Of a DNA stretch of 64,000 nucleotides, positions 1,483-58,548 are shown piece by piece. The notes below the pieces were generated by a model. The model did not search any database and was not told the DNA's origin. It was given only the letters and a program-made list of their open reading frames with translations. Source of the stretch: Vicinamibacteria bacterium (GTDB lineage Bacteria > Acidobacteriota > Vicinamibacteria > Marinacidobacterales > Marinacidobacteraceae); contig OZ220470.1 in NCBI GenBank assembly GCA_965115855.1, forward strand, positions 2,328,422 to 2,392,421, given 5' to 3'. Within the stretch, counting starts at the first letter, position 1. Every line of letters begins with the position of its first letter. The position numbers and the translations under genes were made by a program.

Positions 1483-2943
1483 CTACTCCAACCGATAGTT
1501 CGGAGCTTCCTTGGTAACCACCACGTTGTGGGCGTGGCTCTCCCGCTGGCCGGCGCCGGTAACCCGGATGAACTCGGCGTTCTGCTGGAGCTCGGACACG
1601 GTGCGGCACCCGGCGTATCCCATTCCGGCGCGCAACCCGCCGTTCAACTGCTCCACCACCCCGCGAAGCGGTCCCTTGATGGGCACCCGCCCCTCGATGC
1701 CTTCGGGAACCAGCTTGGAAGCCGGCTGGCCGGCCTGGGCGTAGCGGTCCGCCGTCCCGGAATGCATGGCGCCGAGCGAGCCCATGCCGCGATAGGTCTT
1801 GAAGGCCCGGCCCTGGTACAGGATGGTCTCGCCCGGGCTCTCGTCGGTCCCGGCGAGCAGGTTGCCGACCATGACCGAATCGGCGCCGGCGCCGATGGCC
1901 TTCACCAGATCCCCGCTGAAGCGGATGCCGCCATCGGCGACGACGGGAACCTCGGCCACCGCACTGACCTCCATGATCGCGGAGACCTGCGGCATTCCGG
2001 TCCCCGCCACGACCCGGGTGGTGCAAATGGAGCCGGGCCCCATGCCTACCTTGAGACCATCGGCGCCGGCTTCGACCAGATCGCGAGCAGCATCGGCAGT
2101 GGCGATGTTCCCGGCCATCACATCCACCGAATCGGGGACTTCCCTCCGCAAGCGGGACACCGTGTCGATGCAGCCCCTGGTGTGTCCGTGGGCGGTGTCC
2201 ACCACGATCGCGTCCACGCCGCGTTCGACGAGGCCTCGGGCGCGTTCGAGCCCGGCGTCTCCCACGCCCACCGCGGCCGCGCAGCGGAGCCGGCCGAGAC
2301 CATCCTTGGTGGCGTTCGGGTAGTTCTGCGCCTTCTCGATGTCCTTGACCGACAGCAGACCAACCAGCGCCCCGTCCTCGTCCACGACCGGCAGCTTCTC
2401 CACCCGGCGCTCGTGAAGCGCCTGCCATGCGTCCTGGAGGGTGGCGCCGCGGGGGGCGGTCACCGGGTCGCGGGTCATCAGATCCGACACCCGGAGATCG
2501 CCTGCCGGTTCGAAACGGAGGTCCCGCCGGGTCAGGATGCCGACCAGCCGGGCGTCCCGGATGACCGGGAGACCGGAAATGCCGTGCCGCTTCATGAGCG
2601 CTCGCGCCTCGGAGATCGGGGCATCGGGGGCCACCGTGACCGGATCCACCACCATGCCGCTCTCCGACCGCTTCACCTTGGCGACTTCGTCCGCCTGCTC
2701 TTCCGGAGTCAGGTTCCGGTGGATCACCCCGATGCCTCCGACCTGGGCGATGGCGATGGCCAGCCGCGCCTCGGTAACCGTATCCATCGCCGCGCTCACG
2801 ACCGGCGCCGCCAACGGAATGCGCCGGCTGAACCGCGTCCCGAGGTCGGCATCGGCCGGAAGGACCTCCGAGTAGCGCGGGCGGAGGAGAACGTCGTCGA
2901 AGGTGAGGGTGACCGGAGGAGCCGCATGTGCCGTTTCGCTCAC
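1483..2943 (-). CDS. guaB: inosine-5'-monophosphate dehydrogenase
   Basis: IMPDH catalytic TIM barrel with tandem CBS domains ([20 protein letters not shown]..., active-site Cys loop). GTG start (VSETAH...) overlaps the secA stop by 4 nt. Confidence 0.9.
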
Positions 2944-5687
2944 GCCGCGTGACACCTCTTGTACTTCTTTCCGCTTCCGCAGGGACAGGGGTCGTTCCGC
3001 CCCACCTTCCTGCCCTTGCGGCGCAACGGGGTTCGGGAAGCGCTGCCTCCGGAAGCCGCGGGCGCCGGAGCGCCAGCCGGCGCCGCCGCAAGGGGGCCGG
3101 GAACGGCGGCGAGGTCCGGACCGGACCGGGAGGTCGCCGCCGGCCGGAGCGCCGGCGCGGGGCGCACCGCCTTCAACACATAGAGCAGCCGTATGGCCTC
3201 CGACTCGATCCGCTCCCACATCCCGCCGAACATGGCGAAGGATTCCTTCTTGTATTCGACAAGGGGGTCCCGCTGTCCGTATCCGCGAAGGCCGATGCCC
3301 TGCTTGAGCTGGTCCATCGCATGGAGATGGTCCTTCCACTGGGAGTCCACCACATGGAGCAGGATGTACCGCTCCTGGTTGCGCATCAGGTCGGCGCCGA
3401 ATTCCTCCTCCTTCGCGGCATACCGGCGATGCACCGCAGTGGTCAGGAAATCCAGCAGCTCGTCCCGACCCAGATCCTCGAGACGACTCCCGTTGTCCGG
3501 CTCGGGCACGAAGGCGAACTGGCCCCGCAGCCCGTCCCGCAGTGCGCCCAGGTCCCAGTCGTCGGGGTCCGCCTCCTTCGACGCGTGGAGATCGACCAGC
3601 CCGTCCACCGCGTCCGACGCGAGCTGGAGCACATAGTCGCGCTGATCCTTGCCCTCGAGGATCTGGCGGCGCAGCCGATAGATGGCCACCCGCTGCTTGT
3701 TCATCACGTCGTCGTACTCGAGCAGGTGCTTCCGGTAGGAGAAGTTCTGACCCTCGACCTGTTTCTGTGCCCGCTCGATCGCCCTGGTGACCATCCCGGC
3801 TTCGATGGGAACGCCTTCCTCCATGCCGAGCCGCTCCATGATCCCGCTCATCCGGCCGCTGCCGAAGATGCGCATGAGGTCATCCTCGAGGGACAGGAAG
3901 AAGCGGGAACTGCCGGGGTCGCCCTGGCGCCCGGCCCGCCCGCGCAATTGGTTGTCGATGCGACGCGACTCGTGACGCTCGGTCCCGACGATGTGGAGGC
4001 CGCCCAGGGACACGACTTCGTCGTGCGTGGCCCGGGTCTCGTTCCGGGCGGCGTCCAGCGCCCCCTCCCACTGGGCTCCGGTGGCCTCGGTCCAGTCCAC
4101 GTCCTCCTTGCGCAGCCGAGCCTTCGCGATTTCCTCGGGACTGCCGCCCAGCAGGATGTCGGTACCCCGGCCCGCCATGTTGGTGGAGATGGTGACCACG
4201 CCTCGCTGGCCCGCCTGGGCCACGATCTCCGCTTCGCGCTGGTGGTACTTGGCGTTCAGCACCATGTGCGGGATGCGCTTCCGGTTCAGCAGCCGCGCCA
4301 GTCGTTCGCTCTTCTCGATGGAGGTGGTCCCGACCAGCACCGGGCGTCCTTCCTGGTGATGGCTCCCGATTTCCTCCACGATGGCGTTCAGTTTTTCCCG
4401 TTCGGTCCGATACACCAGATCGGGATGCTCGAGACGCACCAGGGGCCGGTTGGTCGGGATCGGAACAACCTCCAGATCGTAGATCTTCTCGAACTCGGCT
4501 GCCTCGGTCTCCGCGGTGCCGGTCATTCCGGCGAGTTTTCCGTACATGCGGAAGTAGTTCTGGAAGGTGATGGTGGCAAGCGTCTGATTCTCACGCTCGA
4601 TGGTTACGCTCTCCTTGGCCTCGACCGCCTGATGAAGGCCATCGGACCAGCGGCGTCCGGGCATGAGCCGCCCGGTGAACTCGTCCACGATCACGACTTT
4701 CCCGTCCTTGACCGTATAGTCCTTCTCGCGCTTGTAGAGCGCATGGGCCCGGAGCGCTTGCAGCAGATGGTGGAGAAGCGTCATGTTCTCCGGGTCGTAC
4801 AGGTTGTTTACGCGAAGCAGGTCTTCCGCCTTGGGAACTCCCTCCTCGGTAAGAGAAACACTGCGGGATTTCTCGTCCACCGTGTAGTCCACATCCCGCC
4901 GCAGTCTCGGGATGATCCGATCCACGGTGTAGTAGAGGTCGGTGGACTGCTCCGCCGGGCCGCTGATGATGAGGGGCGTGCGCGCCTCGTCGACGAGGAT
5001 CGAGTCCACCTCGTCCACGATGGCGTAGTGGAAGAGTTTCTCGACCTCCTTCCCGTCCCGGTCCGTTTTCGTCGCGGGATGGATCCGGTGGACGAAGTTC
5101 TCCATGCGGAACTTCATGTTGTCCCGGAGATAGTCGAAGCCGAACTCGTTGTTCGTCCCGTAGGTGATGTCGGCGCCGTAGGCCCGCCGCCGGTCGGCGT
5201 CGGCGAGATCGTTCTGGATCACGCCGACCTCGAGTCCGAGGAAGCGATAGATGCGTCCCATCCAGTCGGAGTCGCGGCGAGCCAGGTAGTCGTTCACGGT
5301 GACGACGTGAACACCCTTGCCCGACAACGCGTTCAGGTACGCGGGCAGGGTCGCCACCAGGGTCTTGCCTTCCCCGGTCTTCATTTCGGCGATCTTTCCC
5401 CGGTGGAGGATTACGCCGCCGAGGAGCTGCACATCAAAGTGCCGCATCCCGAGCGTGCGGCGGGAAGCCTCCCGGCAGGCGGCGAACGCCTCCGCAATCA
5501 GGCTGTCCAGCGGCTCGCCGTTCGCGATCCGCTCCCGGAATCCGGCGGTCAGGCCGCCGAGCTCGGCATCGGACCTGTCCCGGTACTGCGATTCGAGCGA
5601 ACCGATTTTCGCCACCAGCGGCCGCAATCGCCTAAGTTCACGGTCCGATTTCTTGCCGACCACGCGGGTGAGCAGGCTCTGTATCAT
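2940..5687 (-). CDS. secA: preprotein translocase ATPase SecA
   Basis: 915 aa. DEAD-like motor domains, helical scaffold domain and C-terminal zinc-binding tail [13 protein letters not shown]. Confidence 0.95.
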
Positions 5688-20032: not shown

Positions 20033-23000
20033 TCACCAGCCGAGGGCGCCCTGGAGCGCGAGTCGCCGGTCCCGCGTTCCCATGACGCTCTCGCGCCGCG
20101 CCCCTTCGAGGTCCAGCCGGAAGAGCGGACCCAGCTGGTAGCGGGCGCCGAGCCGCAGGGCCCGGCCCATCTCCGCCATCTGGAGGCCCGCATACGGGGT
20201 CAGGACCCCGGCCAGGGGAAGCCCGAACCCGTGGCCGCCCTCCGCCGTCAGCCGCCGCTCCGCCCGCAACCCCGCCATCGGGGTCGGGGAGAACGCCGGG
20301 GTCCGGTCGAACATCTGCTGCAGGCCGCTCTCCGTGCCCCCCTGCGACGGCGCCACCTTCAGGAACGGACCCCGTCCCTCATCGCCGGGATCGAGGCTCA
20401 CCATCGCCCCCACGCCCCACTCACGGCGTTCCGTCTCGGCGTGCGTGACCAGCGCCCGGCTACGCACTTGCAATGTCAGTCCCGGGTCCCGCATCCGGTA
20501 CGCCACGCTTCCGCCGACCTCGACCCCCGCGCCCTCCACCGCGTCGCCCCGGTCGTACAGAACCCCCACCTCCAGCGCCGGCGTCAGCGTACCCGTGCCC
20601 AGCGTCCGCTCGTGCGAGCCTTCCAGCATCAACCGCAACCGGCTGGTGTGCGCCGTCAGGCCCTCGAGGCCCGACTCCGAGGCCGTGCTGAAGCGCGCGT
20701 ACGAACCCTCGCCCTTGACCGCCAGCCGGGTCATGCCCCCCGCCAGCAGATCCGCATCCCGGAACAGCACGCTCCGACCGCCCACCGCACCGCTCGCAAA
20801 CGACATCCCCGCGTCCCGCTTGTTCATTCCCGTCTCGGTCACTCGCACCTCGCCCCGACCGTAGCCCCCGCTCGCCCACAGGTTCGACCCGTCGGGCGCC
20901 AGCCACGCCAGGTAGGGGTGCGCCGAGGTCAGTCCCGCCTCGTAGATCCCGGCCACCGAACCGGTCTCGGCGGCGCCGCTCGCATCGAAGTCGCCGGTCG
21001 CGTGCGACACCACGATCCCCGCGAGGAAGTCCGAACCGATCCGCGCGTCCGCGCCCACGTGCGCGGACCACAGTCCCCCGTCCCACGAGACCTCACGGTC
21101 GGTCCCGGAAAGCGACAGCCGTCCGCCCCGGCCCCAGACGCCGATCGCCGGGAATCCGCCCTCCTCCTCTTCCTGGCCGAGCGTCATGCCGAACGCCGCC
21201 CCGTCCAGCACGTCGGCGAGCCGCAACGGCCGGTCGGTCCGCCCGCCGAATCCGGTCCGATCTCCTAACGCTCCCGTCCGGCCGTCGTGCCGCAGGTTGA
21301 GCACTCCTTCGGAAGAGGCGGACATCGGCATCGCGCCCAGCCGCAGCTCGCGCGACGCGAACCCCGCCGACACCGACTCGATCCGGTCGGCAACCGCCCC
21401 CAGCGTCTGCGTCGCGAACCCCGCCGCGAACTGCGGAAGGATCACCTCGTTCAACCGATTCGCACGACCCAGCGCCTCCGCCGACGTCGTGTTCCGCACC
21501 GTCACCGACACCGACTCCGCCGTCACCCCGCCGTAGTCCCCGCCGGACACCCGGTGGCTCACCGTCGCCCTCATGTCCGCCAGCGAGTCCTCGTCCTCCA
21601 CCCCGCTCACCGTCACCGTCTGCGGGGTGTCCCAGTTCGCGGCGGTAAAGGAGAGCGCCTCCGAGACCGTCGCCGCTCCCCCGTCGCTGCTCGCCGGGGT
21701 GACCGTCACCGGACCCGTCGGTTCGCTGGTGAGCACCACCGTGTAGGTCCCGCTTCCGTCCTCGTCCACCGTCAGTTCGGTCGGGGTCACCGTCACCCCC
21801 GCCTTGTCGTTGTCGGTCACCCGCACCGACACCGCATCGGCCTTCACCGAGTCGTAGTCCCCGCCCGAAACCTCGTGGGTCAGGGTCGCGGTATCCGCCA
21901 CCGCGTCGGCGTCCTCCGCCGCGCGGACCGTCACCGTCTGCGCCGTGTCCCAGTTCGCGGCGGTGAACCCGCGCGACGCCGGCGCCACCGTGATGTCCCC
22001 CGCCGCGCCAGCGATCGCCACCGTCACCTCCGCCGTCGGCTCGCTGGTCAGCGCCACCGTGTAGGTCCCGCTTCCCCCCTCGTCCACCATCAGTTCGGTC
22101 GGGGTCACCGCAACCCCCGCCTCGTCGTTCTCGGTCACCCGCACCGACACATCGGCGATCGAAACCGAACCGTAGCCCCCGCCCGACGCCTCGTGGGTCA
22201 AGGTGGCTGTGTCCGCCACCGCGTCGGCGTCCTCCGCCGCCCGGACCGTCACCGTCTGTGGCGTGTCCCAGTTCGCCGGGGTGAACGTCAACGACGACGG
22301 TGAAACCGTCACATCCCCGGACGCGCCCGACACCGTGATCGTGACGTTCCCCGAAGGACGCCGGTCCAGAACCACCGTGTAGACGGCGCCGCCGCCCTCC
22401 GACACCCGCAGCGTCGCCCGCGACACCGTCACGCCTTTCGTCCCCGTGGGAGTCGTCGAGCCGCCGCCGGAACCGCCACCACCTCCTCCGCCGCCACTGG
22501 CGGTCGGCGCCTGCGACGTCGCCGTTACCCGGATCACAATCTCCTCGGTGTCCGAGTTGCCGTTCCCGTCCGACGCCGTCACCTCCATCGTGTATGTCCC
22601 TACCGTTGTCGTCGTGAACATCAAACGCGCCTGGTTCAGCGCCGTGCCGCCGGGAATCGCCGGCGCCGTCTCGCCCGCCTTGCGCGTCCAGGCGTAGGTG
22701 ATCGGGTCGTTGTCCCCGTCCGTCGCCACCGCCGTGATGTCCACCGCCTGGCCGGCCTTCACTGTCCGGTTCGCGATCCCCGACAGCACCGGCGACTCGT
22801 CGTCATCCTCGATCGTCCCCGTCGCCGTCGCGTCCGTGATCGTCGTCCCCGCCGATGCATCGGACAGGGTCACCGTGAACGTCTCGTTGTTCTCGTCGAG
22901 ATCGTCGTTCGTCACCGACACCGTGACCGTCGCGCTGCCCGCGTTCGCCGCGACCGTCGCCGCGGTCGCCGGCGTCACCGCGGTGAAGTCCGTGCCCGCC

Positions 23001-24665
23001 GTCGCCGTGTCGCCGCTTTCCGCCGTCACCGTGTACTTGAACGACGCCTCCGACGAGGGCGCAGGAGAAGCCGTCACCGTGAACGTGAACGTCCCGCCCT
23101 CCGCCGCCGTCACGTCCCCGATGCTCAGCGAGGTCGGGACGTTCTTCAGCGTGCCGTCCGCCGTGCGGTCGGCCCCCCGCACATAGCCGGTCCCGTTGCG
23201 CAGGGTGATCCGGTAGGCCTCCGCGCCTTCCACCGTCGAGTCGAGGATCGTCGGGATCGTCACCGTCCCGGTCGTGCTCGCGGTGCTGCCGAAACTTGCG
23301 GTGAAGTTCCTCGGACCGAGCGAACCCCGTATGTCCGCCGCAGTGAAACCGTTCGAACTCCGCGCCGCCAGCCGCAGACGCACCTTCAGGTCTCCGGTCA
23401 GCGCCTTGTCCGACGTGACCGTCAGGCTGATCGCCGTCCCCTCGGTCACCGCCGCCGGATCATTCAGAAGCTGCAGGACCGGCGTCGTGTCGGTCACCGT
23501 CACGTCCACATCGTCGATACCGAGCTCGTTGCCGTAGTCGGCGTCGGAGCTCGCCGACGAATGCGTCAAGGTCGCCGTGTCGTCCTCCGCGTCCGCGTCC
23601 GTCCCCGCGTTCACCGTGATCGTCTGCGCCGTGTCCCAGTTGGATGTCGTGAAGGTCAGCGGCGAACCCGCCACCGTTACATCGCCCGACGCGCCGCCCA
23701 CCGTCACGGTCACGCTCGCCGAGGGTCTCCTGTTCAGCTTCACCGTATAGGTGTTGCTGCTCCCCTCTTCAACCGTCAGCGACGACGGCGAGATAGTCAC
23801 CCCGGCGGGAGGGTTCGGTGTCGCCGTCACCTCGTTGGACATGGGAGCAAGGATGGCGGTCGGGACACCCGGAGGGGGGGTGGTCGTGCGCCCGACCTGG
23901 AAGCTGTACGCGGTACCGTTGGTCAGACCCGTCACCGTGTGGGTTCGTTTTGTCTTCCCGCCGGGAATGTCGTACATGCTGCCGCTGCCCCCTCCGGCGC
24001 CTTTCTTCTGAAGGTACACCCAGGAGAGGAAGAACTCCGGGTCCGCATATGTCCAGTCAAGTCTCACCCGTCCGTCACCCGGCGTGGCGGAAAGGACGAT
24101 GGCGCTGGCCATCGGCGTCACGGTGACTGCATCCGAGACCACTCCGTAACCGACGTTGTTCACCGCGCGGATCTTGAAACTGTACGTTCTGCCGTTCCTC
24201 AGACCCGTCACCCGGTAACTCTCCGTCGTTGCGCTGGCCCCGGTCATGGTGATCCACGACCCGTAGCGCCCCGTGCCCGACTTCTGCCGGTAATCCCATC
24301 CGGTAATGCTGGGATCACTTGGAATCGCCCACGTCAACAATACGCTTCCAGAGCCCGGAGTGGCGCTGACTCTCGTTGGCTTGACAGGTACTTGCGCTTG
24401 CTGTCCGATGATACCGGCATCCCTCTGGTTGGTCCGAGCCAACCCGGCGGCGTTCCGTGCCCCCGCATCCGGCGCAAGGACGACGGCCAGCGAGATCGTA
24501 GTGAGTGCCGCGACTCGGCGGCGAGCGTTTCTTCTACCGGGCGCCCTCAGCCCCGCGTCTGGATTTCGGGGGGGGGGGGGGGGGTAGAGAGTCGCGTTGC
24601 GCCGGACCGAAACCAGCGGGGCCCAACACCCGCGTCACGCGCTGCGGCCTTGCTGTCACTTCCAT
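20033..24665 (-). CDS. large autotransporter (type Va) adhesin-like protein
   Basis: Built from FN3 domains, five ~100-aa passenger repeats and a C-terminal beta-barrel. The C-terminal ~300 aa match autotransporter beta-domain architecture and end in ...LALQGALGW. Passenger: 2 FN3 domains, then five repeats with signature NWDTxQTVTVxAxxDADxxDDTATLTH. A signal-peptide-like region RRRVAALTTISLAVVLAPDAGA lies upstream of the first annotated codon. The proposed true start is ATG 24665 with SD AGGAG 7 nt upstream, but it is out of frame at the current 17-nt homopolymer. Confidence 0.7.
24568..24584. repeat. G17 homopolymer (C17 on the coding strand) in the autotransporter leader
   Basis: Direct count of 17 consecutive G. 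The upstream ATG frame and the signal-peptide frame differ by 1 nt across the tract. Confidence 0.9.
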
Positions 24666-25159
24666 CACGAACTCCTGCGAATGGCCGAATAAAGGAGCAG
24701 GAACACTCCATCGGGGTTGGTGAACCACCCCAGGGGAATCACCGGTTTATGTAAAGGGGATTGTTTCCGAATCAGGAGTCGCAAATCAAGTGCGTGTATG
24801 AGCCCACGGGATATCCCGGTCGTTCACGACGAAAGGGGCCTCAACTCAATTTCGAGTGGATACGGGCGGGAAGCCCGTCGGGGGGCCGGGTGTCAAGGGC
24901 GGGCGTAGCCCGGCGGAGTGGACCCTTGACGCACGGACCCACGAGGGGCATGCTTGGTTCGGGTCGAAGGCAGCAGAATGCTGTTTTCGGCCCATCACTG
25001 CCTGGGAAACTCCTCATGGAGAACCAGATATTCGGAACCGCGCTCGGCTTGACGGGACTTTGGTTCGTCGAGGTTCCTCCCGCACCGTTTTCTTCCTCAT
25101 CTCCGGGAAATTCGACTTCCCAAGCTCAGCACCCATTTCGCCTAACCCACTCGAAATTC

Positions 25160-26598
25160 GGCTCTATTGAATTTCGAGTGGGTTATGCGAGGTGAGGGTT
25201 GAGCTTGGAGAAGTCGAGTTTTCCGGCGATAAGAAAGAAAACGGTGCGGATGGTGCGGAAGGAACGATACCCCCTGGCTTTCCGCTTGGCGGATTGGAAG
25301 AGGCCATTGAGGGCTTCTATGAACCCGTTGGTCTGGCGGGTTCGGGCCCACGCGGTGATGCCGTCGAAGTGTCTTCGGATCATCCGGGCGACGGCTTTCA
25401 TGGGTTCGATCCGGGATCGATTCACGTTGGTGCACCACTGCTGGAGCATGGCCCGCATGACATGGACTTGCTTGCGGTGGAGGATGGCACGGAGTTGCTC
25501 CCGGTACCGCCAAGCTCGAGTGGTGCGCTTCCCAGCGGTCTGTGCGATCAGCGCGTTGAGTGCGGCGCGTTGGTTACGGCTGAGGTGTGTCGGATTCTTG
25601 AGCAAGGTCCAGCGCATGCCCTTGATCCCCGGATCGACCCGCTGCTCGATGCGTCTGGTTTCGTCGAGGGCACTCGAGGCGTGGGCGACGACATGGAACT
25701 TGTCGAAAGTGATTTGGGCATGGGGCAAATGCTTCGCAACCCCCTTGATGAAAGCAGGGGACATGTCGATCGAGACGAACCGGATCGCTTCGGGAGCGCC
25801 ACCCTGTACCGCCAAGTTCCGGGCGAATTGTCCGACCGTGTCGGCCCCCCGGCCCTCCCCGACAAACAGCACCCGGCGCTTGCGGGCGTCGGCGGCAACG
25901 GTGACATAGGCGTGCCCCCGGGCCCGGGAGGTCTCGTCGATTGCGACGGCGCGAACGTCGCCCTGGTCGTCCTCCGCGGAGGCGAGTTCCACGTATTGGT
26001 TGCAGATGGTCTGAACCCGGTGTGGAGAAATCTTGTTCAACCGTGCGACCGCGGCGAAGGGCATTTCCCGACTCATGACGATCACCAACGCTTCGAAGAG
26101 CGCAGTGAACCCGGAGACCTGACCCGTCCAGGGCGTGGTGACCAGCGCGATCCGTCCGTCGGGCAGACGGACTCTCGGAACCCTCGCTACCACTTCGCAT
26201 TCATACTGGAAGAAGTTGAGGTGGCGATAGCGCTTGGTCTTGGTGTCGTGGATGGGGTGTGTACCTTCGTGGTCCTTGTGAGGAAAGCGGGCGCCACGCT
26301 GAAAGTCGATATGGATGATCAGCTTGCGATCACACTCGACAAACTTCACGCTTTCGACGAACCAAGGTTCGATGAGGCCAAGGGCGGTTGCGAAGATGCG
26401 GTGGATATCTGTCATGAGATGCTTCTCCTATGCAGAGATGGGCCGAAAAGCAGCATTCTGCCGCTTTTCGAGCCCGAACCAAGCATGCCCGTCGCGGGTC
26501 CGTGCGTCAAGGGTTCGCTCCGCCGGGCTACGCCCGCCCTTGACACCCGGCCCCCCGACGGGCTTCCCGCCCGTACCCACTCGAAATTGAGTTGAGGC
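25160..26598 (-). mobile_element. ISL3-family insertion sequence, copy 1 (1439 bp)
   Basis: Identical to the copy at 56000..57438. Imperfect ~24-bp terminal IRs (GGCTCTATTGAATTTCGAGTGGGT / GCCTCAACTCAATTTCGAGTGGGT). 8-bp TSD cgaaattc at 25152-25159 and 26599-26606. Confidence 0.85.
25183..26415 (-). CDS. ISL3-family transposase
   Basis: 410 aa, identical to the ORF at 56023..57255. Its conserved blocks match the ISL3 (IS1001/IS1096/IS1165-type) family. Confidence 0.85.
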   Translation of the reverse strand: MTDIHRIFATALGLIEPWFVESVKFVECDRKLIIHIDFQRGARFPHKDHEGTHPIHDTKTKRYRHLNFFQYECEVVARVPRVRLPDGRIALVTTPWTGQVSGFTALFEALVIVMSREMPFAAVARLNKISPHRVQTICNQYVELASAEDDQGDVRAVAIDETSRARGHAYVTVAADARKRRVLFVGEGRGADTVGQFARNLAVQGGAPEAIRFVSIDMSPAFIKGVAKHLPHAQITFDKFHVVAHASSALDETRRIEQRVDPGIKGMRWTLLKNPTHLSRNQRAALNALIAQTAGKRTTRAWRYREQLRAILHRKQVHVMRAMLQQWCTNVNRSRIEPMKAVARMIRRHFDGITAWARTRQTNGFIEALNGLFQSAKRKARGYRSFRTIRTVFFLIAGKLDFSKLNPHLA

Positions 26599-26624
26599 CG
26601 AAATTCAATAGAGCCCGAAAGGGG

Positions 26625-27130
26625 AACCCATGAAGACGCGCTCGAGGGAGCGGCATCTGGCCGCATCTCGGTATCCGGCGCGGAGACAACGGCCAGCGTG
26701 ATGGTGGCGCGTGCCGCGTTCCGGCGGTTCTCCTGCTGGGCGACCTCAACCCCATGTCTGGATTTCGGGGGGAGATATGCGTTCACGCGGTACGGGGAAC
26801 CATGTCGCTGCGCAGCCGGTTGTCATGACGGTGAATTTCCCGGATCGGCAGGCAGGAAGCGCGGATGCTCATTTGAGTAACGCCTCGGAGGGTAACACCG
26901 ACAAAGCGAAGCATGTTCTCCTGGTCAGCTTCATCGTGTCATGTCCCGCTCGCTCCCTCGTCCACCGCAAGTTCGGCCAGAGTGATCGTCACCGTGATCG
27001 TCGCGCTGGTCGCTTGTCTTGCGCAGCGATGCTACCCCCGGTCGCCGTCGCAACCGCCGTGAAGTCCGTGCCCTCGGTCGCCGATGGTCAGCAAAGTCGT
27101 ATCGTCGTTCAGACCGACGCACCACATCGC
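26625..27130 (-). pseudogene. decayed paralog of the autotransporter 5' module (leader with C6 tract plus passenger-like fragment)
   Basis: 26672-26790 is homologous to 24462-24600 and includes gtctggatttcgggggg. The ORF from GTG 26786 reads MNAYLPPKSRHGVEVAQQENRRNAARATITLAVVSAPD... straight through the C6 tract. 26800-27130 resembles passenger repeat DNA (accgccgtgaagtccgtgccc...) but is frame-broken. Confidence 0.35.
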
Positions 27131-41200: not shown

Positions 41201-41818
41201 CTACGGCGCCACTCCGACCAGTACCAGCGGTACTGCGGGTACGCCGCGGCCTTGTCGGATGACGTTCAGCAGGTCGCGTTCGTAGTACGGCACTCCGGAA
41301 GACATTTCCTTCTCGAGTTCCTTCATGGGGAGTATTTCGATTCCCACGTCGATGATGTCCCGAGTGTAGAAGCTCAAGTGCTTCACGAACAGGTCATGGG
41401 CAACGAAGGCGTATTTGCCGAACTGGACTTCCACCGCGACCCGCTGCTTCACGAAGTCGGTCTGGTTGTATGACCGGATCGGTTCGTATCCCGCCTCCAC
41501 GATCTTCTGCTTCTGCTTTTCTTCGGGTAGCTCATGCACGCCGCGCATCACTCGCTCATCGGATGTGACCCAGAATGTGCTGCGACGTTGCTTCCACCCC
41601 CGGTCTTGGAAACCTTCACAAAATTCCCTGTTCATGTCCACCGGCGAATAGAGCATCCTGTTTTTGCTTCGGGATTCCTCGGAGACCTTGGTCCGACAAG
41701 CCCTGGCGTCCACAGCGCCGGCGATTTCCTCGACCTCCTGCCAGAGACCGGGATGGTGCACAAGAAGGTACTCATGGGCGTTCAAGTGGGAATACCGAGC
41801 CATGATCCGCATTGTCAA
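41201..41818 (-). CDS. BglII-family Type II restriction endonuclease
   Basis: From memory of BglII: N-term LWQEVEE against BglII LWKEIEE, and catalytic block VEVQFGKYAF against BglII VEVQFSNYPF. Local GC is markedly lower than the flanks. Confidence 0.65.
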   Translation of the reverse strand: MTMRIMARYSHLNAHEYLLVHHPGLWQEVEEIAGAVDARACRTKVSEESRSKNRMLYSPVDMNREFCEGFQDRGWKQRRSTFWVTSDERVMRGVHELPEEKQKQKIVEAGYEPIRSYNQTDFVKQRVAVEVQFGKYAFVAHDLFVKHLSFYTRDIIDVGIEILPMKELEKEMSSGVPYYERDLLNVIRQGRGVPAVPLVLVGVAP

Positions 41819-42681
41819 TGTCCCCCACGCGGCAGCCGGGGGTCGTAGACCGGTTTTCCCATCGGTCGGATGCGCAGGGTTCCGTCTTCACGCTGTCGGA
41901 TGCGTTCCCGGGCAATCTCGACATACTCGGGGATGATGTCGCAACCGTATCCCTCCCGTCCGTGGTTCAGGGCGGCGATCACCGTGCTGCCGACCCCCAT
42001 GTAGGGATCCAGCACCTTGTCGCCCGGGTCGGTCATGGCCAGCACCAGGCGCTCCACCAGTTCGATCGGAAACTGACAGGGATGGATCGTCTTTTCCGGA
42101 TGGTTGCTCTTGACATTGGGAATCTCCCAGACGTCGGTCGGATTCTTGCCTCTGGGGTTACAGGAGGGCTTGCCCGCATTCGGACCCTTGAAGTGCTTCT
42201 TTCCCGGGTACTTCGGTGGAACGCGGATCGGGTCCAGATGCCATGTATAGCTGTCGCTCCTGGTCCACCAGTTGATGGTCTCGTACCGGCCCGAAAGCCG
42301 TCGCGTGCAGTGCAGGCCATGTCCGAAGTGCCAGACGATCCGATTTCGCAGTCGCAGTCCATGTTCGCGGAAGACCGGATAGAGAATCACGTCCAGCGGG
42401 ATGATTTCGCCGTTATCCACATAATTCCCGACTTGCCAGCAGATCGACCCCTCCGGATGAAGCACCCGCACACATTCGGCGATCACCTTGCGCTGGGCCT
42501 CCACGTACGAGGACACGGGAGTTCGTTTCTCGTAGTCCTTCCCGAGGTTGTAGGGTGGTGAGGTGACGATCAATTTCATCGATCCATCAGGGACGGCTCC
42601 CAGAAATTCGAGATTGTCCTGACACGCGACAAGGGCCTTCGCCGCCTGTGCCGGAGCCGCGAGCGGCAGGCGATTCCGAAC
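41815..42681 (-). CDS. beta-class DNA methyltransferase (N4-cytosine/N6-adenine; M.BglII-like), cognate of the adjacent REase
   Basis: Motif IV SPPY (LIVTSPPYN) near the N-terminus, motif I DPYMGVGST near the C-terminus. Stop overlaps the REase start. True start uncertain, between 42681 and 42840. Confidence 0.8.
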   Translation of the reverse strand, partial: VRNRLPLAAPAQAAKALVACQDNLEFLGAVPDGSMKLIVTSPPYNLGKDYEKRTPVSSYVEAQRKVIAECVRVLHPEGSICWQVGNYVDNGEIIPLDVILYPVFREHGLRLRNRIVWHFGHGLHCTRRLSGRYETINWWTRSDSYTWHLDPIRVPPKYPGKKHFKGPNAGKPSCNPRGKNPTDVWEIPNVKSNHPEKTIHPCQFPIELVERLVLAMTDPGDKVLDPYMGVGSTVIAALNHGREGYGCDIIPEYVEIARERIRQREDGTLRIRPMGKPVYDPRLPRGGH

Positions 42682-42940
42682 CGGGCGCGGCGCGGCCCTG
42701 CTTCCTGGCCGCAATCGCAATCGCTGTCTCTCTTGCGCCACCACCAGACCGGGGTGGGCCGCGGAGCCCTGCGGCTTCGTCCGGCCGCCCGGCCGCTTCC
42801 GGTCATTTCGCAAATCCGCCGTGCCGCCGGGAGCGCTCATCGAACCCCACCTCCGCTTGGGGAGTATACCGGTCGGACTGCCGGGAACCGGCCCGGTCCC
42901 GCAGGGCTGGAGGTTCCGTCCCGGTGGTACCTTCCGGCGC

Positions 42941-43900
42941 ATGCGCCCCCTTCTTCCCATGCTCGTTCTTCTTGCCGCATGCTCACCTCCCCCGCAAACG
43001 ACAACGACGGATGCCGGCGCCTTGCCGCCGATTCTCGCCCAGAACGCCTTCCTCTACTACCGCGATCTGGCCGAGGCGGAGGCGTTCTATCGCGATGTGC
43101 TCGGGTTGCCCCTTGCCGCCGACTTCGGCTTCGCCAAGATGTTCGAGGTGGCCGAATCCGCCTATCTGACGCTGGTGGACGAGGCCGAGGGGATGCACAG
43201 CGCCGACGAACCCAGGACGGTGGCCTTCGCGCTGATCACCGAACGACTCGCCGACTGGCAGGCGCGCCTCGAGGAGGCGGGCGCCGATTTCCGCAGCCGC
43301 TTCGACGAAACGGCTGCCGATCCGGAAGCCGCCCACCACGGATTCACCGTGTTTGATCCGGGGGGCTACATCCTGGAGTTCGAGCGGTTCCTGCCCCACC
43401 CCGAGAACGCCGACCTGATGCCGATTCTGGATGCCAGCGAACCCCTGGGCGGGGATCGGGCCGCCGCCGGACCGGGGATGGGCTTCGAGGCGATGATCGT
43501 CTGGCTCTACTACCCGGAGCTCCCTCCCCTGCTCGACTTTTACCAGGAGGCGTTCGGTTTGCCACAGACGGTGGATCAGGGATGGGCGAAGATCCTTCGG
43601 ACGTCCTATGCCGGGTTCATCGGCCTCGTGGACTCGAACCGGGGCATGCACCCGTTCACCGAGGACAAGTCGGTCACCGTGAGTTTCTTCGTGGACGCGG
43701 TCGAACCCTGGCATCGGCATCTCGAGGATTTTCCCGGGTATCGATCCCGCACCGGAATCGTGAACGAGAGCGACCGGGTGCGGGTCTTCGTCGGCTACGA
43801 CCCCGGAAACTACTTCCTCGAGTTCGACGCCTTTCTGGATGCGCCGGGGAACGAGACGTTGCGGTCCCGGCTCCGGACGATCCGGCGTGTTCCCCGCTGA
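42941..43900 (+). CDS. tandem VOC (glyoxalase/bleomycin-resistance fold) lipoprotein
   Basis: Lipobox LLAACS; two VOC-like beta-alpha-beta-beta-beta modules. Confidence 0.65.
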   Translation: MRPLLPMLVLLAACSPPPQTTTTDAGALPPILAQNAFLYYRDLAEAEAFYRDVLGLPLAADFGFAKMFEVAESAYLTLVDEAEGMHSADEPRTVAFALITERLADWQARLEEAGADFRSRFDETAADPEAAHHGFTVFDPGGYILEFERFLPHPENADLMPILDASEPLGGDRAAAGPGMGFEAMIVWLYYPELPPLLDFYQEAFGLPQTVDQGWAKILRTSYAGFIGLVDSNRGMHPFTEDKSVTVSFFVDAVEPWHRHLEDFPGYRSRTGIVNESDRVRVFVGYDPGNYFLEFDAFLDAPGNETLRSRLRTIRRVPR

Positions 43901-47630: not shown

Positions 47631-49066
47631 CCGGGATCGTCTTCGGCGTCTACCTCGCCACGATCTTCCTGATCGGGTGGGTGGCGCTCCGCCGCACGCG
47701 AAACGAGAGCGATTACTGGATTGCCGGGGGCCGGCTCGGCTGGTTCCTCGGGGGGGCGACGCTGGCCGCCACCCACGCGAGCGCCGGAACCTACATCGGG
47801 ACCGTGGGAGTGATCCACGCGGTGGGGTGGGAATTCGCCTGGCTCGTCCTGTTCATCCCCCTGAGCTACTGGTTCATGGCGGGGGCGCTGGCGCCCCGCT
47901 TCGCCCGCACGCGGGAACTCACCCTGCCGGCATTTCTCGAGCGCCGCTACTACAGCCGCCGCGCCCGCGCCCTCGCCGCGGTGGTGATCCTCATCGCCAC
48001 CACCGTGTACATCCAGGCGCAGGTCCTCGCCGGCGGGCTCATCGCCCAGACCGTGTTCGGCATCCCGCCGACCTGGGGCATGGCCGTCTTCACCGTGATC
48101 CTGCTGGCCTATACCGCGGTCGGCGGCATGGTGGCGGTGGTCTGGACCGACCTGGTGCAGCTGGTGGTCATGGTCGTCGGCGCGCTGATCGCGGTTCCCA
48201 TGGTCTGGCGGATACTGGATGGCCCGGCGGCCCTGTTCGCCGCCGTCGAGACCCTGCGGCCGGATGCCTTCGCGTTCGGGCAGCTGCCCGGCCTGTTGCT
48301 GTTCACGATGGGCATCTCGTTCCTGCTGGGGGGAATCGCCACCCCCGAGAAGCTGGTGCGGCTCCATGCGATGCGCGACCAGCGCTCCATCCGCCGGGGA
48401 CTGCTGCTGGCCATGGCGGTCGCCTCCGGCGTGAATCTGCTGGTGTTCCTGCTGGCGCTCGCGGCGATGGGGCTCTTTCCGGTGTTGCCGAGCGGGGATC
48501 TCGCCATGCCGCTGATCGCCTCGGCGGCGCTGCCCCCGGTGCTCGGAACGATCCTGCTCGCTGCCATCGTGTCGGCGATCATGTCCACGGTGGATTCGCT
48601 GCTGCTGGTGGCCGGATCGGCCCTTGCGCACGACATCCTCGGTGCGTTGCGCCCGGGCGCCTCCGACCGGGCCCGACTCGCCGCCGCCCGACTCGGCATC
48701 CTGCTGGTCGGGGCGGCGCCGCTGGTCCTGATCCTGAGCGGCGTGGGAGAGGGGGATCTGGTGCAGTTCATCGTGCTGTTCTTCACCGCGATCATGGCCA
48801 GCGCCTTCTTCGTGCCGGTAGTGGTGGGCGTCTACTGGCGGCGACTGACCCGCGAAGGGGCGGTGGCGGCGATGGTCGCGGGAGTGGCCACCGTATTCGG
48901 ATGGCAGGCGGATATCCTGCCGTGGACCGGGTTCGGACCAGACTTGGTGCATCCGGCGGCGCCGGGAGTGCTGGTCTCGCTGCTCGTCGGCGTGTTGGTG
49001 AGCCGAGCGACCCCGCCGCCGCCGGAGTCCGCGCTCGCGCCGTATTTCGGAGGGACGGATCGATGA
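47626..49066 (+). CDS. sodium:solute symporter (SSS family)
   Basis: ~480 aa, 13 TM helices, with SSS conserved blocks. Start codon is ambiguous (non-ATG, CTG/ATC region at 47626-47640). Confidence 0.85.
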
Positions 49067-49437
49067 AGGTGAAGGGACTCGGAGTGCGGGTTGTCGGCGG
49101 CATGGGCCTGCCGCCCTTCGGCGTGATCGTGAGCCGGGCGCCACTGCCGGAGTCCGCGCTCGCGCCATATTTCGGAGGGACGGATCGATGAAGGTGAGGG
49201 GACGCGGGGTGCGGGTTATCGGCGGCATGGGCCTGCCGCCTGTCGGCGTGATCGTGAGGCGGGCACCGCTGCCGGAGTCCGCGCTCGCACCGTATTTCGG
49301 AGGGACGGGTCGATGAAGGTGAGGGGACTCGGGGTGCGGGTTATCGGCGGCATGGATCTGCCGCCTGTCGGCGTGATCGTGAGCCGGGCGCCGCTGCCGG
49401 AGTCCGCGCTCCGGCCCTGTTTCGGGAGGACCGGCCG
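49063..49437 (+). repeat. 3 tandem copies of a 125-bp unit spanning the SSS-stop/SDR-start junction
   Basis: Period exactly 125 bp, starting at 49063, 49188, 49313 and 49438. Units are diverged, not identical. Each carries GGAGGG, an ATG and a 42-aa ORF whose TGA overlaps the next ATG. Confidence 0.9.
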
Positions 49438-50229
49438 ATGAAGCTCGAGGGACGTGGAGTTCTCGTCACGGGCGGCGCCCGCGGCATGGGCCTGCTGCTC
49501 GCGCGCATGGCGCAGGAGCGCGGAGCCCGGGTGGCGATCTGGGATACCCACGACAGCGCCCTCGCTGCTGCCAGCGGGGAACTCGGCGGCGCGGTCGCTG
49601 CCGACGCGGTGGACGTTGGGTGTCCGGAAGCGGTGGGTCTCGCAGCCGAACGGCTTCCCTTCGCGGTGGACGTGCTCGTGAACAACGCCGGCGTGGTCTC
49701 CGGCAAGCGCTTCCCCGAGCTGACGCCGGAGGAGGTCCGCCGTACCCTGCGCGTGAATCTGGAAGCGTTGTTCTGGACTACCCGCGCGTTTCTTCCCGGC
49801 ATGGTGCGCCGTGGTGAGGGCCATCTCGTGACCATGGCCTCCGCCGGCGGTCTTGTCGGCGTCCCGGCGCTCTCCGACTACTGCGCGTCCAAGTTCGGAG
49901 CGGTCGGGTTCCACGAATCGGTTCGCGCCGAACTGCGGCACACGGCGCCCGGCATCGGGACCACCCTGGTGTGCCCCTTCTTCGTGAACACCGGAATGTT
50001 CGCGGGAGTGCGGACCCGGTTCCCGTTCCTGCTCCCGATTCTCGATCCGGGCGCGGTCGCCGCGGCGACTGTCCGCGCCATCGAGCGGAATCGGGCGACG
50101 GTGGTCCTCCCCTGGTTCGTCCACTCGCTCAAGCTGCTCCGGCTGCTGCCGTCGGCCTGGCTGGATCCGATCGCCGCCTTTTTCGGCATCCACGCTTCGA
50201 TGAGAAGCTTCACCGGCCGCCGACGTTGA
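49438..50229 (+). CDS. short-chain dehydrogenase/reductase (SDR)
   Basis: TGGARGMG cofactor motif, NNAG, and catalytic YxxxK (YCASK). Confidence 0.85.
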   Translation: MKLEGRGVLVTGGARGMGLLLARMAQERGARVAIWDTHDSALAAASGELGGAVAADAVDVGCPEAVGLAAERLPFAVDVLVNNAGVVSGKRFPELTPEEVRRTLRVNLEALFWTTRAFLPGMVRRGEGHLVTMASAGGLVGVPALSDYCASKFGAVGFHESVRAELRHTAPGIGTTLVCPFFVNTGMFAGVRTRFPFLLPILDPGAVAAATVRAIERNRATVVLPWFVHSLKLLRLLPSAWLDPIAAFFGIHASMRSFTGRRR

Positions 50230-57438: not shown

Positions 57439-57710
57439 ATCCAAAACAAGGTCGCCCACGTCGGATGTGGAACTGATGATCCGGTGCAGAAGCGCGAGCG
57501 GTTTCTGTGTCGGAAAGCCGGTACGCTCCTTGGAAGACCCGGGAATGATCGGAATATCCCATACATCTCGCATTGGCATTCCGAGTGATTTTTTGTCTCC
57601 CGTGATTTTCTTGGATTTGGTAATCGGATCGAGGATTTGCGACCTCCCCTTGAATACGCGAAGAGTGGACGTTGATAACTCCTCGTAGCCCTGATTCCAA
57701 GACCATCTTA

Positions 57711-57726
57711 CCCCCCCCCCCCCCCC
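57711..57726. repeat. C16 homopolymer (G16 in the mRNA; poly-Gly codons) inside the MTase-HNH reading frame
   Basis: Direct count of 16 C. The upstream and downstream MTase frames differ by 1 nt across the tract. Confidence 0.9.
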
Positions 57727-58548
57727 GTATACCAAAAGAGAACGTCGTGCATTCGCTGAAATCGGCGCTGCTTTGACGGCCACCGCTTGTACGACCATAT
57801 GATTTCGTTCTGGAATGCGTCTTTCCCAAATACTGAATCCATGACCATTTTCAGGGGATGACTCATCGTGGGGTCACAGTGAAGCCACACTGATCCTGTC
57901 GGTTTCAGTATTCTTCGAATTTCCAAAATGCGCGGCGCCATATAGGCGAGATAGGATTTGTCGCTATCTGTAATGGCTGCCAAGATAATCTTGTGGAGAG
58001 ATGGATGCTTGGCTTCAATTAGATTGACCCACTCAGCATCTACATCGGAGAGCGACCACGTATCTTTAAAAGCAGCCCCTGCTGCCGTAGAACCAATAGG
58101 TGCGGCGTAGTCGGACTCGGAGTTGAAAGGAGGATCCAAATAGATTAGATCCACTGACTCGGAATTCATGCCTCGCATAATTGGGAGGTTGTCTCCGGTC
58201 CATACAGTCTTGTCGGCCCAATTCGGTTTGCCCATATCGAGAGGATATAGGAAACCTCACGCCATCGACACGGCACTCACCGATGGCGGCGTTTACGCTG
58301 CCTGCGAAGGACTTCGTGGCGCACGCCAAAGTGGATCGTTTTGATCGACTGCGAGGAATCGGCCTGCCTGCATGGTCCGGCAAGGGGTCGGTCCGTGCGT
58401 GCGGGATCGCCACGAGGTCAAGCGGATCGACGAGGAACTTTACGTCGGAACCAGTCGGGCTTCCACGGTGCTCTCAATGGGCATAAGCTTCCTCCGTACG
58501 CGCCGGAACTGCGCAAGGAGGTCTCTTTTGGGAAGACGAACAGCGGGA

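What the first reader, a model, noticed from the sequence alone, without database searches (positions are those of the whole stretch)
24462..24730. Candidate phase-variation switch: 17-nt poly-G tract in the autotransporter leader separating an SD+ATG from the signal peptide
On the minus strand a good SD (AGGAG at top 24673-24677) sits 7 nt before ATG 24665 and opens MEVTARPQRVTRVLGPAGFGPAQRDSL, then a run of 17 C (top-strand G at 24568-24584). In the present frame the reading dies 11 codons later (PPPPPPKSRRGAEGAR*). The autotransporter frame, with classic signal peptide RRRVAALTTISLAVVLAPDAGA and 1450 further codons, is offset by exactly 1 nt and has no start codon of its own. A tract of 16 (or 19) fuses ATG, leader, signal peptide, passenger and beta-barrel into one ORF. 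This is the architecture of slipped-strand-mispairing contingency loci seen in Neisseria and Bordetella. I cannot name a described system combining it with an FN3-repeat autotransporter in a ~70% GC genome.
Basis: partly seen in the sequence, partly recalled or inferred. Interest (0 to 1): 0.8.

Follow-up and report, generated by a model that had tools for sequence, protein, structure and literature searches.

The report
Hypermutable poly-C tract before adhesin gene
A real 17-base run of C sits just before a large surface-adhesin (autotransporter) gene of an uncultured marine Acidobacteriota bacterium; related genes carry the same run at other lengths, so it is probably a mutational expression switch of a known kind, but placed upstream of the gene's start rather than inside it.

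Summary
G17 lies at 24568-24584 (C17 on the coding strand). The SD+ATG frame and the signal-peptide frame are offset so that 16 or 19 C would fuse them. No ATG/GTG/TTG lies between the tract and the signal peptide.

The protein is a type Va autotransporter (PF03797) with fn3, Calx-beta and PKD-like passenger domains. The host is an Acidobacteriota MAG related to Ca. Marinacidobacterium.

Homologous 5' regions keep the same tract with conserved flanks, at lengths C6, C13, C19 and C31. That argues for a real, hypermutable repeat and against an artefact.

In all four homologues a canonical start codon (GTG three times, ATG once) lies 11-42 nt downstream of the tract. The conserved flanking motifs are read in different frames, and the 27-codon "leader" has no coding signature. 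The tract therefore most likely sits in the promoter or 5' leader, as in Bordetella fim promoters. The window copy has lost its canonical start; only CTG remains.

A second tract, G16 at 57711-57726, lies inside an IS-truncated DNA methyltransferase gene.

Verdict: new member of a known kind. Length variation within a population was not tested.

The parts
24568..24584 (-). C17 homopolymer on the coding strand (G17 on top); the hypermutable repeat
24585..24596 (-). Conserved 5' flank CGCGACTCTCTA (GCGCGACAACTCTA in relatives); candidate upstream promoter or activator element
24545..24567 (-). Conserved 3' flank GAAATCC-A-GACGCGGGGCTGAGG. GAAATYC is a candidate -10-like element. The GRCGCGRGRCTG motif is shared with L003, L004, L006 and W1b.
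24548..24556 (-). GCG-GGG-CTG. GCG (24556-24554) occupies the position of the ATG in paralogue W1b. CTG (24550-24548) occupies the position of W1b's TTG and is the only start-like codon before the signal peptide.
24458..24523 (-). Signal-peptide core RRRVAALTTISLAVVLAPDAGA
   Evidence: compare the homologue signal peptides
24534..24676 (-). AGGAG (24676-24672), ATG 24665 and a 43-codon ORF running through the tract to TAG 24536-24534. It is either fortuitous, an upstream ORF, or the start used when the tract is 16 or 19.
20033..24634 (-). Autotransporter open frame (1533 codons). fn3 at about 24119-24382, then Calx-beta and PKD/He_PIG domains. The beta-barrel match lies at about 20537-21133, and the protein ends ...LALQGALGW.
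24838..25159 (.). MITE-like internally deleted derivative of the ISL3 element, 253 bp upstream of the tract
25160..26598 (-). ISL3-family insertion sequence, copy 1 (410-aa transposase), 100% identical to 56000-57438
26600..26790 (-). W1b, a decayed paralogous copy of the autotransporter 5' region. It has C6 (26772-26767), GAAATCCAGAC, ATG (26755-26753), and a signal-peptide remnant with a 7-nt deletion. It is cut by the IS.
57711..57726 (-). Second long tract: G16 on the coding (minus) strand, inside a DNA methyltransferase gene. The frame breaks at the tract, and 14 or 17 G would restore it.
57439..58235 (-). N6_N4 DNA methyltransferase pseudogene (PF01555, model positions 1-188 of 221), truncated at its 3' end by ISL3 copy 2

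Best explanation
The C17 run is a lineage-conserved, hypermutable homopolymer. It sits immediately 5' of the translation start of a family of FN3-bearing autotransporter adhesin genes in Ca. Marinacidobacterium-like Acidobacteriota, and in at least one other genome from metagenome assemblies of the same set.

Shown:
- The tract recurs at the homologous position with conserved flanks on both sides.
- Its length differs sharply between copies whose flanks are about 90% identical.
- In the homologues the start codon and signal peptide follow the tract by 11-42 nt.

Inferred:
- The tract lies in the core promoter or 5' leader, for example as a spacer between an upstream element (CGCGAC..CTCTA) and a -10-like GAAATYC.
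- Slipped-strand mispairing during replication changes its length, and so switches or tunes transcription. This would work like the C-stretch of Bordetella fim promoters.

In the window copy the family's GTG/ATG start is absent; GCG and CTG stand in its place. As sequenced, the gene is therefore either weakly translated from CTG or silent. A change to 16 or 19 C could also fuse it to the upstream SD+ATG.
For: - Tract and frames.
- Homologous loci in OZ241856.1 (Ca. Marinacidobacterium sp.; SecA 87% identical to the window's): L003 has C19 and L004 has C13. Their flanks are 89% identical over 201 nt.
- L006 has C31, followed by the same GACGCGAGGCTG...GTG motif.
- The in-window paralogue W1b has C6 followed by GAAATCCAGAC-ATG.
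- GTG-initiated ORFs begin with typical signal peptides and run 2512 aa (L004) and 1942 aa (L006). Their N-terminal regions carry fn3 domains.
- The conserved motifs are read in three different frames, and indels between the tract and the start are not multiples of 3.
- W1 and W1b show no similarity upstream of the tract, but strong similarity downstream (score 75 against a null of 16).
- The leader lacks GC3 enrichment.
- This genome seldom uses SD sequences (SecA has none), so a start without an SD after the tract is normal here.
- A related arrangement occurs upstream of other FN3/autotransporter genes, C19 in L001 and C22 in L005.
- Precedents for both promoter and coding homopolymer switches in autotransporter and fimbrial genes: PMC1891110, PMC5472700.
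Against: - No sigma-70 consensus promoter was found around the tract. GAAATC is a poor -10, whereas a tRNA promoter in this genome has a perfect TATAAT.
- No transcription start site data exist.
- The window copy lacks any canonical start after the tract, yet has a good AGGAG-N6-ATG upstream whose frame is open up to the tract. Such sites occur at only 0.03 per 100 nt.
- In L004, L006 and L005 an upstream ATG happens to be in frame through the tract.
- A second tract in the same window is clearly intragenic, so coding-region switches do occur in this genome.
- Length variation was seen only between paralogues and species, not within a population.
- Several autotransporter homologues have no tract at all (L007, L128, L129, L130).
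Confidence: 0.5

Rival explanations
1. One reading: translation starts at ATG 24665, the tract encodes a poly-proline stretch in an N-terminal extension, and length changes (17 to 16 or 19) switch the whole autotransporter ON or OFF by frameshift. This would work like nalP, ausI and bapC.
For: - A good SD plus ATG, with the frame open up to the tract. Such sites are rare.
- No ATG/GTG/TTG lies between the tract and the signal peptide.
- The 1533-codon ORF is otherwise intact with GC3 of 0.87.
- In L004, L005 and L006 an upstream ATG is in frame through the tract.
- The G16 in the methyltransferase shows that intragenic tracts exist in this genome.
Against: - Homologues have their start codon after the tract.
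- The flanks are conserved as DNA in different frames.
- The leader is not conserved in any homologue and has no coding signature.
- Tracts of 19-31 C would encode 6-10 consecutive prolines at the N-terminus.
- A 47-residue extension ahead of the signal peptide is atypical.
- The in-frame upstream ATGs in 2 of 4 family-1 loci fit chance in GC-rich DNA.
Confidence: 0.22
2. A relic with no present function. The window copy is a decaying gene that has lost its start codon and has a MITE plus IS inserted upstream. The tract is a leftover or a neutrally expanding homopolymer, with no regulatory role in this copy.
For: - GCG/CTG stand where homologues have ATG/GTG/TTG.
- The MITE and ISL3 lie 253 bp upstream, next to a decayed duplicate of the 5' region.
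- The L003 paralogue is also interrupted by an IS.
- The other tract-bearing gene in the window is dead.
Against: - A 4.6-kb ORF with strong GC3 bias is still intact.
- The tract and both flanks are kept across genomes with intact genes (L004, L006). This argues for selection on the element at family level.
Confidence: 0.2
3. A sequencing or assembly artefact: either a poly-G chemistry artefact, or a miscalled homopolymer length that creates an apparent frameshift.
For: - Relatives come from long-read metagenome assemblies (contig names such as ctg6959_18x_c). From my own knowledge, homopolymers of 16-17 are hard to size to within one base in such data.
- Both tracts in the window are one base away from a frame-restoring length.
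Against: - The tract recurs at homologous sites in independent assemblies with conserved flanks.
- The sequence is continuous and homologous on both sides, so its existence is not an artefact.
- An error of one base would matter only under the frame-fusion model.
Confidence: 0.05

Closest known systems
Bordetella pertussis fim2/fim3/fimX promoter C-stretch (PMC1891110)
   Same: A poly-C run directly upstream of a surface-structure gene in a ~67% GC genome. It is flanked by conserved promoter elements, and length changes by slippage alter transcription.
   Different: No activator site, -10 element or transcription start has been mapped here. The tracts are longer (13-31 against about 7-15). The phylum is different (Acidobacteriota). 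The downstream gene is an autotransporter, not a fimbrial subunit.
Bordetella pertussis bapC, an autotransporter with G10-13 and C14 tracts in its 5' coding region (PMC1891110)
   Same: An autotransporter in a high-GC genome with homopolymers at its 5' end, annotated as frameshifted, where a change of one base restores the frame.
   Different: In bapC the tracts lie inside the ORF and variation was shown within single colonies. Here the homologues place the start codon after the tract, and no population data exist.
Neisseria meningitidis nalP and ausI (mspA), autotransporters with poly-C tracts in the coding region; autA/autB with AAGC repeats just after the start codon (PMC5472700)
   Same: Phase-variable type Va autotransporters switched by slipped-strand mispairing near the 5' end.
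   Different: Those repeats are demonstrably coding and short. The passengers are proteases or beta-helical adhesins rather than FN3/Calx-beta/PKD arrays. The hosts are low-GC mucosal pathogens.
Phase-variable DNA methyltransferases (phasevarions); my own knowledge plus one search hits
   Same: The second tract (G16 at 57711-57726) lies inside an N6_N4 methyltransferase ORF and breaks its frame.
   Different: This methyltransferase is also truncated by an IS, so it is dead whatever the tract length. It is a beta-class N6_N4 enzyme, not a Type III mod gene.

Membership tests
Slipped-strand-mispairing contingency locus (simple-sequence-repeat phase variation) | A homopolymer or short repeat well above the length expected by chance and above the slippage threshold (about 8-9 or more for G/C) | tested here: met
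   C17. No other G/C run exceeds 8 in 64 kb, apart from the second tract of 16.
Slipped-strand-mispairing contingency locus (simple-sequence-repeat phase variation) | The repeat is placed where length changes alter expression: inside the ORF, or in the promoter or 5' leader | tested here: inconclusive
   The tract lies 17 nt before the only start-like codon (CTG), and 11-42 nt before the start in homologues. Whether it is promoter, UTR or coding is unresolved, and no sigma-70 match was found.
Slipped-strand-mispairing contingency locus (simple-sequence-repeat phase variation) | Repeat length is polymorphic among closely related sequences | tested here: met
   C13 against C19 in paralogues with 89% identical flanks. 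C6 against C17 within the window. C31 in L006. These are comparisons between paralogues and species only.
Slipped-strand-mispairing contingency locus (simple-sequence-repeat phase variation) | Reversible, high-frequency ON/OFF switching within a clonal population | not testable with these tools
   No reads or cultures are available, and the source contig could not be retrieved.
Coding-region poly-C switch of autotransporters (nalP/ausI/bapC type) | The tract lies downstream of the functional start codon, within the ORF | tested here: inconclusive
   Not met in the homologues L003, L004, L006 and W1b, where the start follows the tract. For the window copy the only canonical start is upstream, but it is not conserved and shows no coding signature.
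fim-type C-stretch promoter | The C-stretch acts as a spacer between an upstream activator or -35 element and a -10 box, with length-dependent transcription | not testable with these tools
   Conserved flanks abut the tract on both sides, which fits the model. However, no consensus hexamers were found and there is no expression data.
Type Va (classical) autotransporter | C-terminal autotransporter beta-barrel domain | tested here: met
   PF03797, 39 bits against a cut-off of 26, E = 1e-9 on the last 455 aa. The protein ends in a C-terminal W.
Type Va (classical) autotransporter | N-terminal Sec signal peptide on the same polypeptide | tested here: inconclusive
   A typical n-h-c region, RRNARRR-VAALTTISLAVVLA-PDAGA, is in frame, but no canonical start codon precedes it. 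No signal-peptide predictor was available.
Type Va (classical) autotransporter | A passenger domain between the signal peptide and the barrel | tested here: met
   fn3, fn3_6, Calx-beta, PKD/He_PIG and Big_9. This is an Ig-like repeat array, not the usual beta-helix.
ISL3-family insertion sequence (neighbouring element) | DDE_Tnp_ISL3 transposase with terminal inverted repeats | tested here: met
   PF01610, E = 1e-66, with HTH and Zn-ribbon ISL3 domains. There are two identical 1439-bp copies and inverted terminal repeats.

The most novel reading that the evidence does not exclude
Very long poly-C tracts (13-31 nt) with conserved flanks may be a shared cis-element. It would mark the 5' boundary of FN3 adhesin/autotransporter gene cassettes in several uncultured marine, possibly host-associated, bacteria recovered from related metagenome assemblies. 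The carriers include Ca. Marinacidobacterium-like Acidobacteriota and at least two genomes of unknown taxonomy, one of which (ctg6925c) is not a close relative by SecA.

Together with a poly-G tract in a DNA methyltransferase, this would be the first contingency-locus repertoire described in Acidobacteriota. The tract might also serve as a recombination junction for swapping 5' regions, since homology between paralogues begins exactly at the tract in two pairs.
Probability: 0.3. Interest if true: 0.65.

Novelty: new member of a known kind. Interest (0 to 1): 0.45.

Why it matters
Homopolymer-driven phase variation is textbook biology for a few mucosal pathogens, such as Neisseria, Haemophilus, Campylobacter and Bordetella. 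As far as my searches show, it has not been described for Acidobacteriota or for uncultured marine symbionts.

If confirmed, these organisms would be randomising the expression of large FN3-type surface adhesins. Those are the "eukaryotic-like" proteins thought to mediate host contact. They may also be randomising a DNA methyltransferase. That would point to immune-like or phage-driven fluctuating selection in that niche.

There is also a practical point for annotators. Such genes will be miscalled as frameshifted or truncated in long-read MAGs, and a start codon chosen upstream of the tract may be spurious.

Tried and rejected
1. Exact look-ups of the window's autotransporter, transposase and SecA in public assemblies found nothing, although SecA has a 100% match (P0121) on a 3,016,700-bp contig. 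The source contig and its reads could not be reached.

2. Flank-pattern scans for the locus in genome contigs and metagenome contigs gave 0 hits.

3. A looser pattern, CTA-C10+...CGAAAT, in metagenomes gave 120 unrelated hits from assorted organisms and none resembling this element. This was a dead end.

4. I tested whether the tract belongs to the IS element, since both tracts lie about 250-270 bp from an ISL3 end. I rejected this. The IS ends are sharply defined at 25160/26598 and 56000/57438, and the two tract regions share only the run itself. The second tract lies inside a methyltransferase gene.

5. I tested whether all tracts have C on the coding strand of the downstream gene. The methyltransferase tract, which is G on its coding strand, rejects this.

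6. I looked for an RNA structure that sequesters the start. Folds of four leaders are no more stable than shuffled sequences (z = 0 to +2.5).

7. A sigma-70 promoter scan around the tract found none.

8. The first alignment suggested that W1 and W1b share the upstream ATG. This did not hold, because similarity upstream of the tract is no better than for shuffled sequence.

9. The two-colour poly-G artefact is rejected, because the same tract recurs in independent assemblies.

10. The N-terminal homologue search found no protein sharing the leader peptide; its hits matched the passenger repeat domains. A tblastn of the leader against the fetched loci also found nothing significant.
Full report
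**Observation.**
The minus strand of 24300-24900 reads ...AGGAG(24676-24672)-TTCGTG-ATG(24665)... GAC TCT CTA, then 17 C (24584-24568), then GAAATCCAGACGCGGGGCTGAGG....
- The ATG frame gives MEVTARPQRVTRVLGPAGFGPAQRDSLPPPPPPKSRRGAEGAR*.
- The large frame is open from 24634 to 20033. It reads ...YPPPPPRNPDAGLRAPGRRNARRRVAALTTISLAVVLAPDAGA... and then about 1450 more codons.
- The first ATG/GTG/TTG in the large frame is TTG 24442, beyond the signal peptide.
- Removing one C, or adding two, joins the two frames.
- In this 67.3% GC window, G and C runs fall off about four-fold per added base and stop at 8. The exceptions are this G17 and a C16 at 57711-57726.

**What the gene is.**
- The last 455 residues hit the Pfam Autotransporter beta-domain above its curated threshold.
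- The passenger carries fn3, Calx-beta and PKD/He_PIG/Big_9 domains.
- SecA in the window (2940-5687, minus strand) is 100% identical to a protein on a 3,016,700-bp NCBI/ENA contig. It is 86-87% identical to SecA of three other ~2.9-3.0 Mb assemblies. One of these is OZ241856.1, "MAG: Candidatus Marinacidobacterium sp.", classified as Acidobacteriota, Vicinamibacteria.
- The relatives' contig names (ctg6959_18x_c and similar) indicate long-read metagenome assemblies. This is inference.
- The source contig itself could not be retrieved.

**Neighbourhood.**
- An ISL3-family insertion sequence of 1439 bp lies at 25160-26598 and again, 100% identical, at 56000-57438.
- A 322-bp MITE-like derivative lies at 24838-25159. 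The MITE end is 253 bp upstream of the tract.

**Comparative evidence.**
A search of species-representative genomes with the barrel region returned two paralogous loci in OZ241856.1. Both carry a long C run at the homologous place: C19 in L003 and C13 in L004.

Look-ups of more distant barrel homologues gave further cases:
- C31 in front of a 1942-aa FN3/Calx-beta gene (L006).
- C22 in front of an autotransporter (L005).
- C19 in front of an FN3 protein in another genome (L001).

Five other loci totalling about 110 kb have no run longer than 8 (L002, L007, L128, L129, L130).

Inside the window, a tblastn with the post-tract peptide found a decayed duplicate of the 5' region just beyond the IS. 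I call it W1b (26600-26790, minus strand). It reads ...ATATCT-C6-GAAATCCAGAC-ATG-GGG-TTG-AGG....

Aligned, the five "family 1" regions are:

| Copy | 5' flank | Tract | Sequence after the tract |
|---|---|---|---|
| W1 | CGCGAC-TCTCTA | C17 | GAAATCC-A-GACGCGGGGCTGAGG |
| W1b | ACGCATATCT | C6 | GAAATCC-A-GACATGGGGTTGAGG |
| L003 | GCGCGACAACTCTA | C19 | GAAATTC-GTCGAG-GCGCGGGACTGAAGCG-GTG |
| L004 | GCGCGACAACTCTA | C13 | GAAATTC-GCCAGGTTCGCCGG-GCGCGGGACTGAAGCG-GTG |
| L006 | ...TTCCTA | C31 | TCTCCTCCTCCTC-GAAAAAACC-G-GACGCGAGGCTGTGAACCG-GTG |

L003 and L004 have flanks 89% identical over 201 nt yet differ by six C. The tract is therefore real, conserved in position, and changes length far faster than its surroundings. 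That is the signature of a hypermutable repeat.

**Where translation starts.**
- In L003, L004 and L006 a GTG lies 29, 37 and 42 nt after the tract. It opens MGRLLRRFARRLTPAPLAAVVLLALGATKAQA, MGRSLRRFARRLTPAPLAAVVLLALGAAEAQA and MGALGKTACSLSAGLAAVFLLILGVAAAQ. These are ordinary signal peptides that begin at the start codon.
- From those GTGs the ORFs run 2512 aa in L004 and 1942 aa in L006. L003 is interrupted by a DDE transposase.
- In W1b an ATG lies 11 nt after the tract.
- The window copy has GCG where W1b has ATG, and CTG (24550) where W1b has TTG. It lacks the segment that carries GTG in the relatives.
- Starting at CTG would give (M)RAPGRRNARRR-VAALTTISLAVVLA-PDAGA, the same n-h-c layout as the homologues.

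**Is the leader coding?** Several results argue against it.
- The conserved motif GRCGCGRGRCTG is read in three different frames in W1, L003/L004 and L006.
- GAAATTC is read in different frames in L003 and L004.
- The indels between the tract and the start (8 nt between L003 and L004) are not multiples of three.
- W1 and W1b are strongly similar from the first base after the tract (score 75 against a null of 16 +/- 2.5). They are no more similar than shuffled sequence in the 60 or 155 nt before it.
- The 27 codons between ATG 24665 and the tract have GC1/2/3 of 0.74/0.62/0.69, whereas the gene has GC3 of 0.87.
- No homologue shares the leader peptide.
- The absence of an SD before the downstream starts is not informative, because this genome seldom uses one. 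SecA and most other genes in the window have none.

- AGGAG/GGAGG-N4-9-ATG occurs only 0.03 times per 100 nt in the window.
- The window copy has no canonical alternative start.
- In L004, L005 and L006 an upstream ATG is in frame through the tract. However, 2 of 4 family-1 loci fits chance in GC-rich DNA.

**Mechanism.**
- The conserved elements directly abutting both ends of a variable C run, with the start codon a few tens of nucleotides downstream, are what a promoter spacer repeat looks like. The described analogue is the C-stretch of the Bordetella fim2/fim3/fimX promoters (PMC1891110).
- I could not find sigma-70 hexamers there. GAAATC is a weak -10 compared with the TATAAT before tRNA-Pro. 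The promoter assignment is therefore inference.
- The leaders are not unusually structured as RNA.
- The alternative, a coding-region switch as in nalP, ausI and bapC (PMC5472700, PMC1891110), remains possible for this copy.
- Homopolymer length in long-read consensus is uncertain by about one base (my own knowledge). "Out of frame by one" is therefore weak evidence for an OFF state.

**The second tract.**
- C16 at 57711-57726 is G16 on the minus strand, inside a DNA methyltransferase gene.
- Upstream of the tract, one frame reads ...DLIYLDPPFNSESDY...FWYTGGGGG*.
- Downstream, a second frame continues ...DVWDIPIIPGSSKERTGFPTQKPLALLHRIISSTSDVGDLVLD, up to the ISL3 end at 57438.
- The frame-corrected join matches PF01555 as one stretch, model positions 1-188 of 221, E = 5.7e-34.
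- Fourteen or 17 G would restore the frame, but the IS has removed the 3' end, so the gene is dead.
- An intact paralogous methyltransferase with a BglII-like endonuclease lies at 41201-42960.
- Both long tracts in the window are thus tied to the two classic classes of contingency gene, a surface adhesin and a DNA methyltransferase.

**Comparison and novelty.**
- The phenomenon belongs to slipped-strand contingency loci.
- Phase-variable autotransporters with homopolymers at the 5' end are known, including one in a 67% GC genome (bapC).
- What is new is the host lineage. I found no literature on Ca. Marinacidobacterium, or on phase variation in such organisms.
- Also new are the length of the tracts (up to 31) and their recurrence, with conserved flanks, before FN3-type adhesin genes in several genomes assembled from the same set of metagenomes.
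- I rate it a new member of a known kind, of moderate interest. The key property, within-population length variation with an effect on expression, is untested.

Noticed in passing
window 57439-58235 (minus strand), tract 57711-57726: A G16 run lies inside an N6_N4 DNA methyltransferase gene (PF01555). The frame breaks at the tract, and 14 or 17 G would restore it. ISL3 copy 2 has also cut off the gene's 3' end. It looks like a dead, phasevarion-like locus.
   Followed up: yes
window 26600-26790 (minus strand): A decayed duplicate of the autotransporter 5' region (W1b). It has C6, an ATG 11 nt downstream, and a signal-peptide remnant with a 7-nt deletion, and it abuts the right end of ISL3 copy 1. 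Similarity to the main copy begins exactly at the tract.
   Followed up: yes
window 25160-26598 and 56000-57438; 24838-25159: Two 100% identical copies of a 1439-bp ISL3-family insertion sequence, plus a 322-bp MITE-like internally deleted derivative. Each of the two long homopolymer tracts lies about 250-270 bp from one of these elements.
   Followed up: partly
window 49014-49451: A 125-bp tandem repeat (3.5 copies, 90% identical). It duplicates the junction between the 3' end of a transporter gene (47681-49066; function not checked) and the 5' end of the next gene (49438-50229; function not checked). Each unit carries GGAGG plus ATG and a 42-codon ORF.
   Followed up: partly
window 41201-42960 (minus strand): An intact restriction-modification pair in a lower-GC island: a BglII-like endonuclease (PF09195) and an N6_N4 methyltransferase (PF01555).
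   Followed up: partly
L001 9848-9866 and L005 9549-9570: A second family of tract-bearing 5' regions (C19 and C22), upstream of FN3/autotransporter genes in two other genomes (2.0 and 3.0 Mb) from sample ERZ24894574. The post-tract sequence is conserved (ACACAGG...GAATCAGCGTGGGGA), followed by two successive hydrophobic segments. Similarity between the two loci begins at the tract.
   Followed up: partly
L003 1876-3531: In Ca. Marinacidobacterium sp. OZ241856.1, the autotransporter paralogue carrying C19 is interrupted by a DDE_Tnp_1 transposase after 415 codons.
   Followed up: partly
L006 1-19150 and L128: An array of very large FN3/Calx-beta surface-protein genes (called products of 9323, 1872 and 2658 aa) in contig ctg6925c, with internal repeats of about 2112 bp. 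Only one of these genes has a tract (C31) in front of it.
   Followed up: no
whole window, gene starts: Most genes, including secA, have no Shine-Dalgarno motif upstream. The few with a strong SD include the IS transposase and the candidate leader at 24665.
   Followed up: partly
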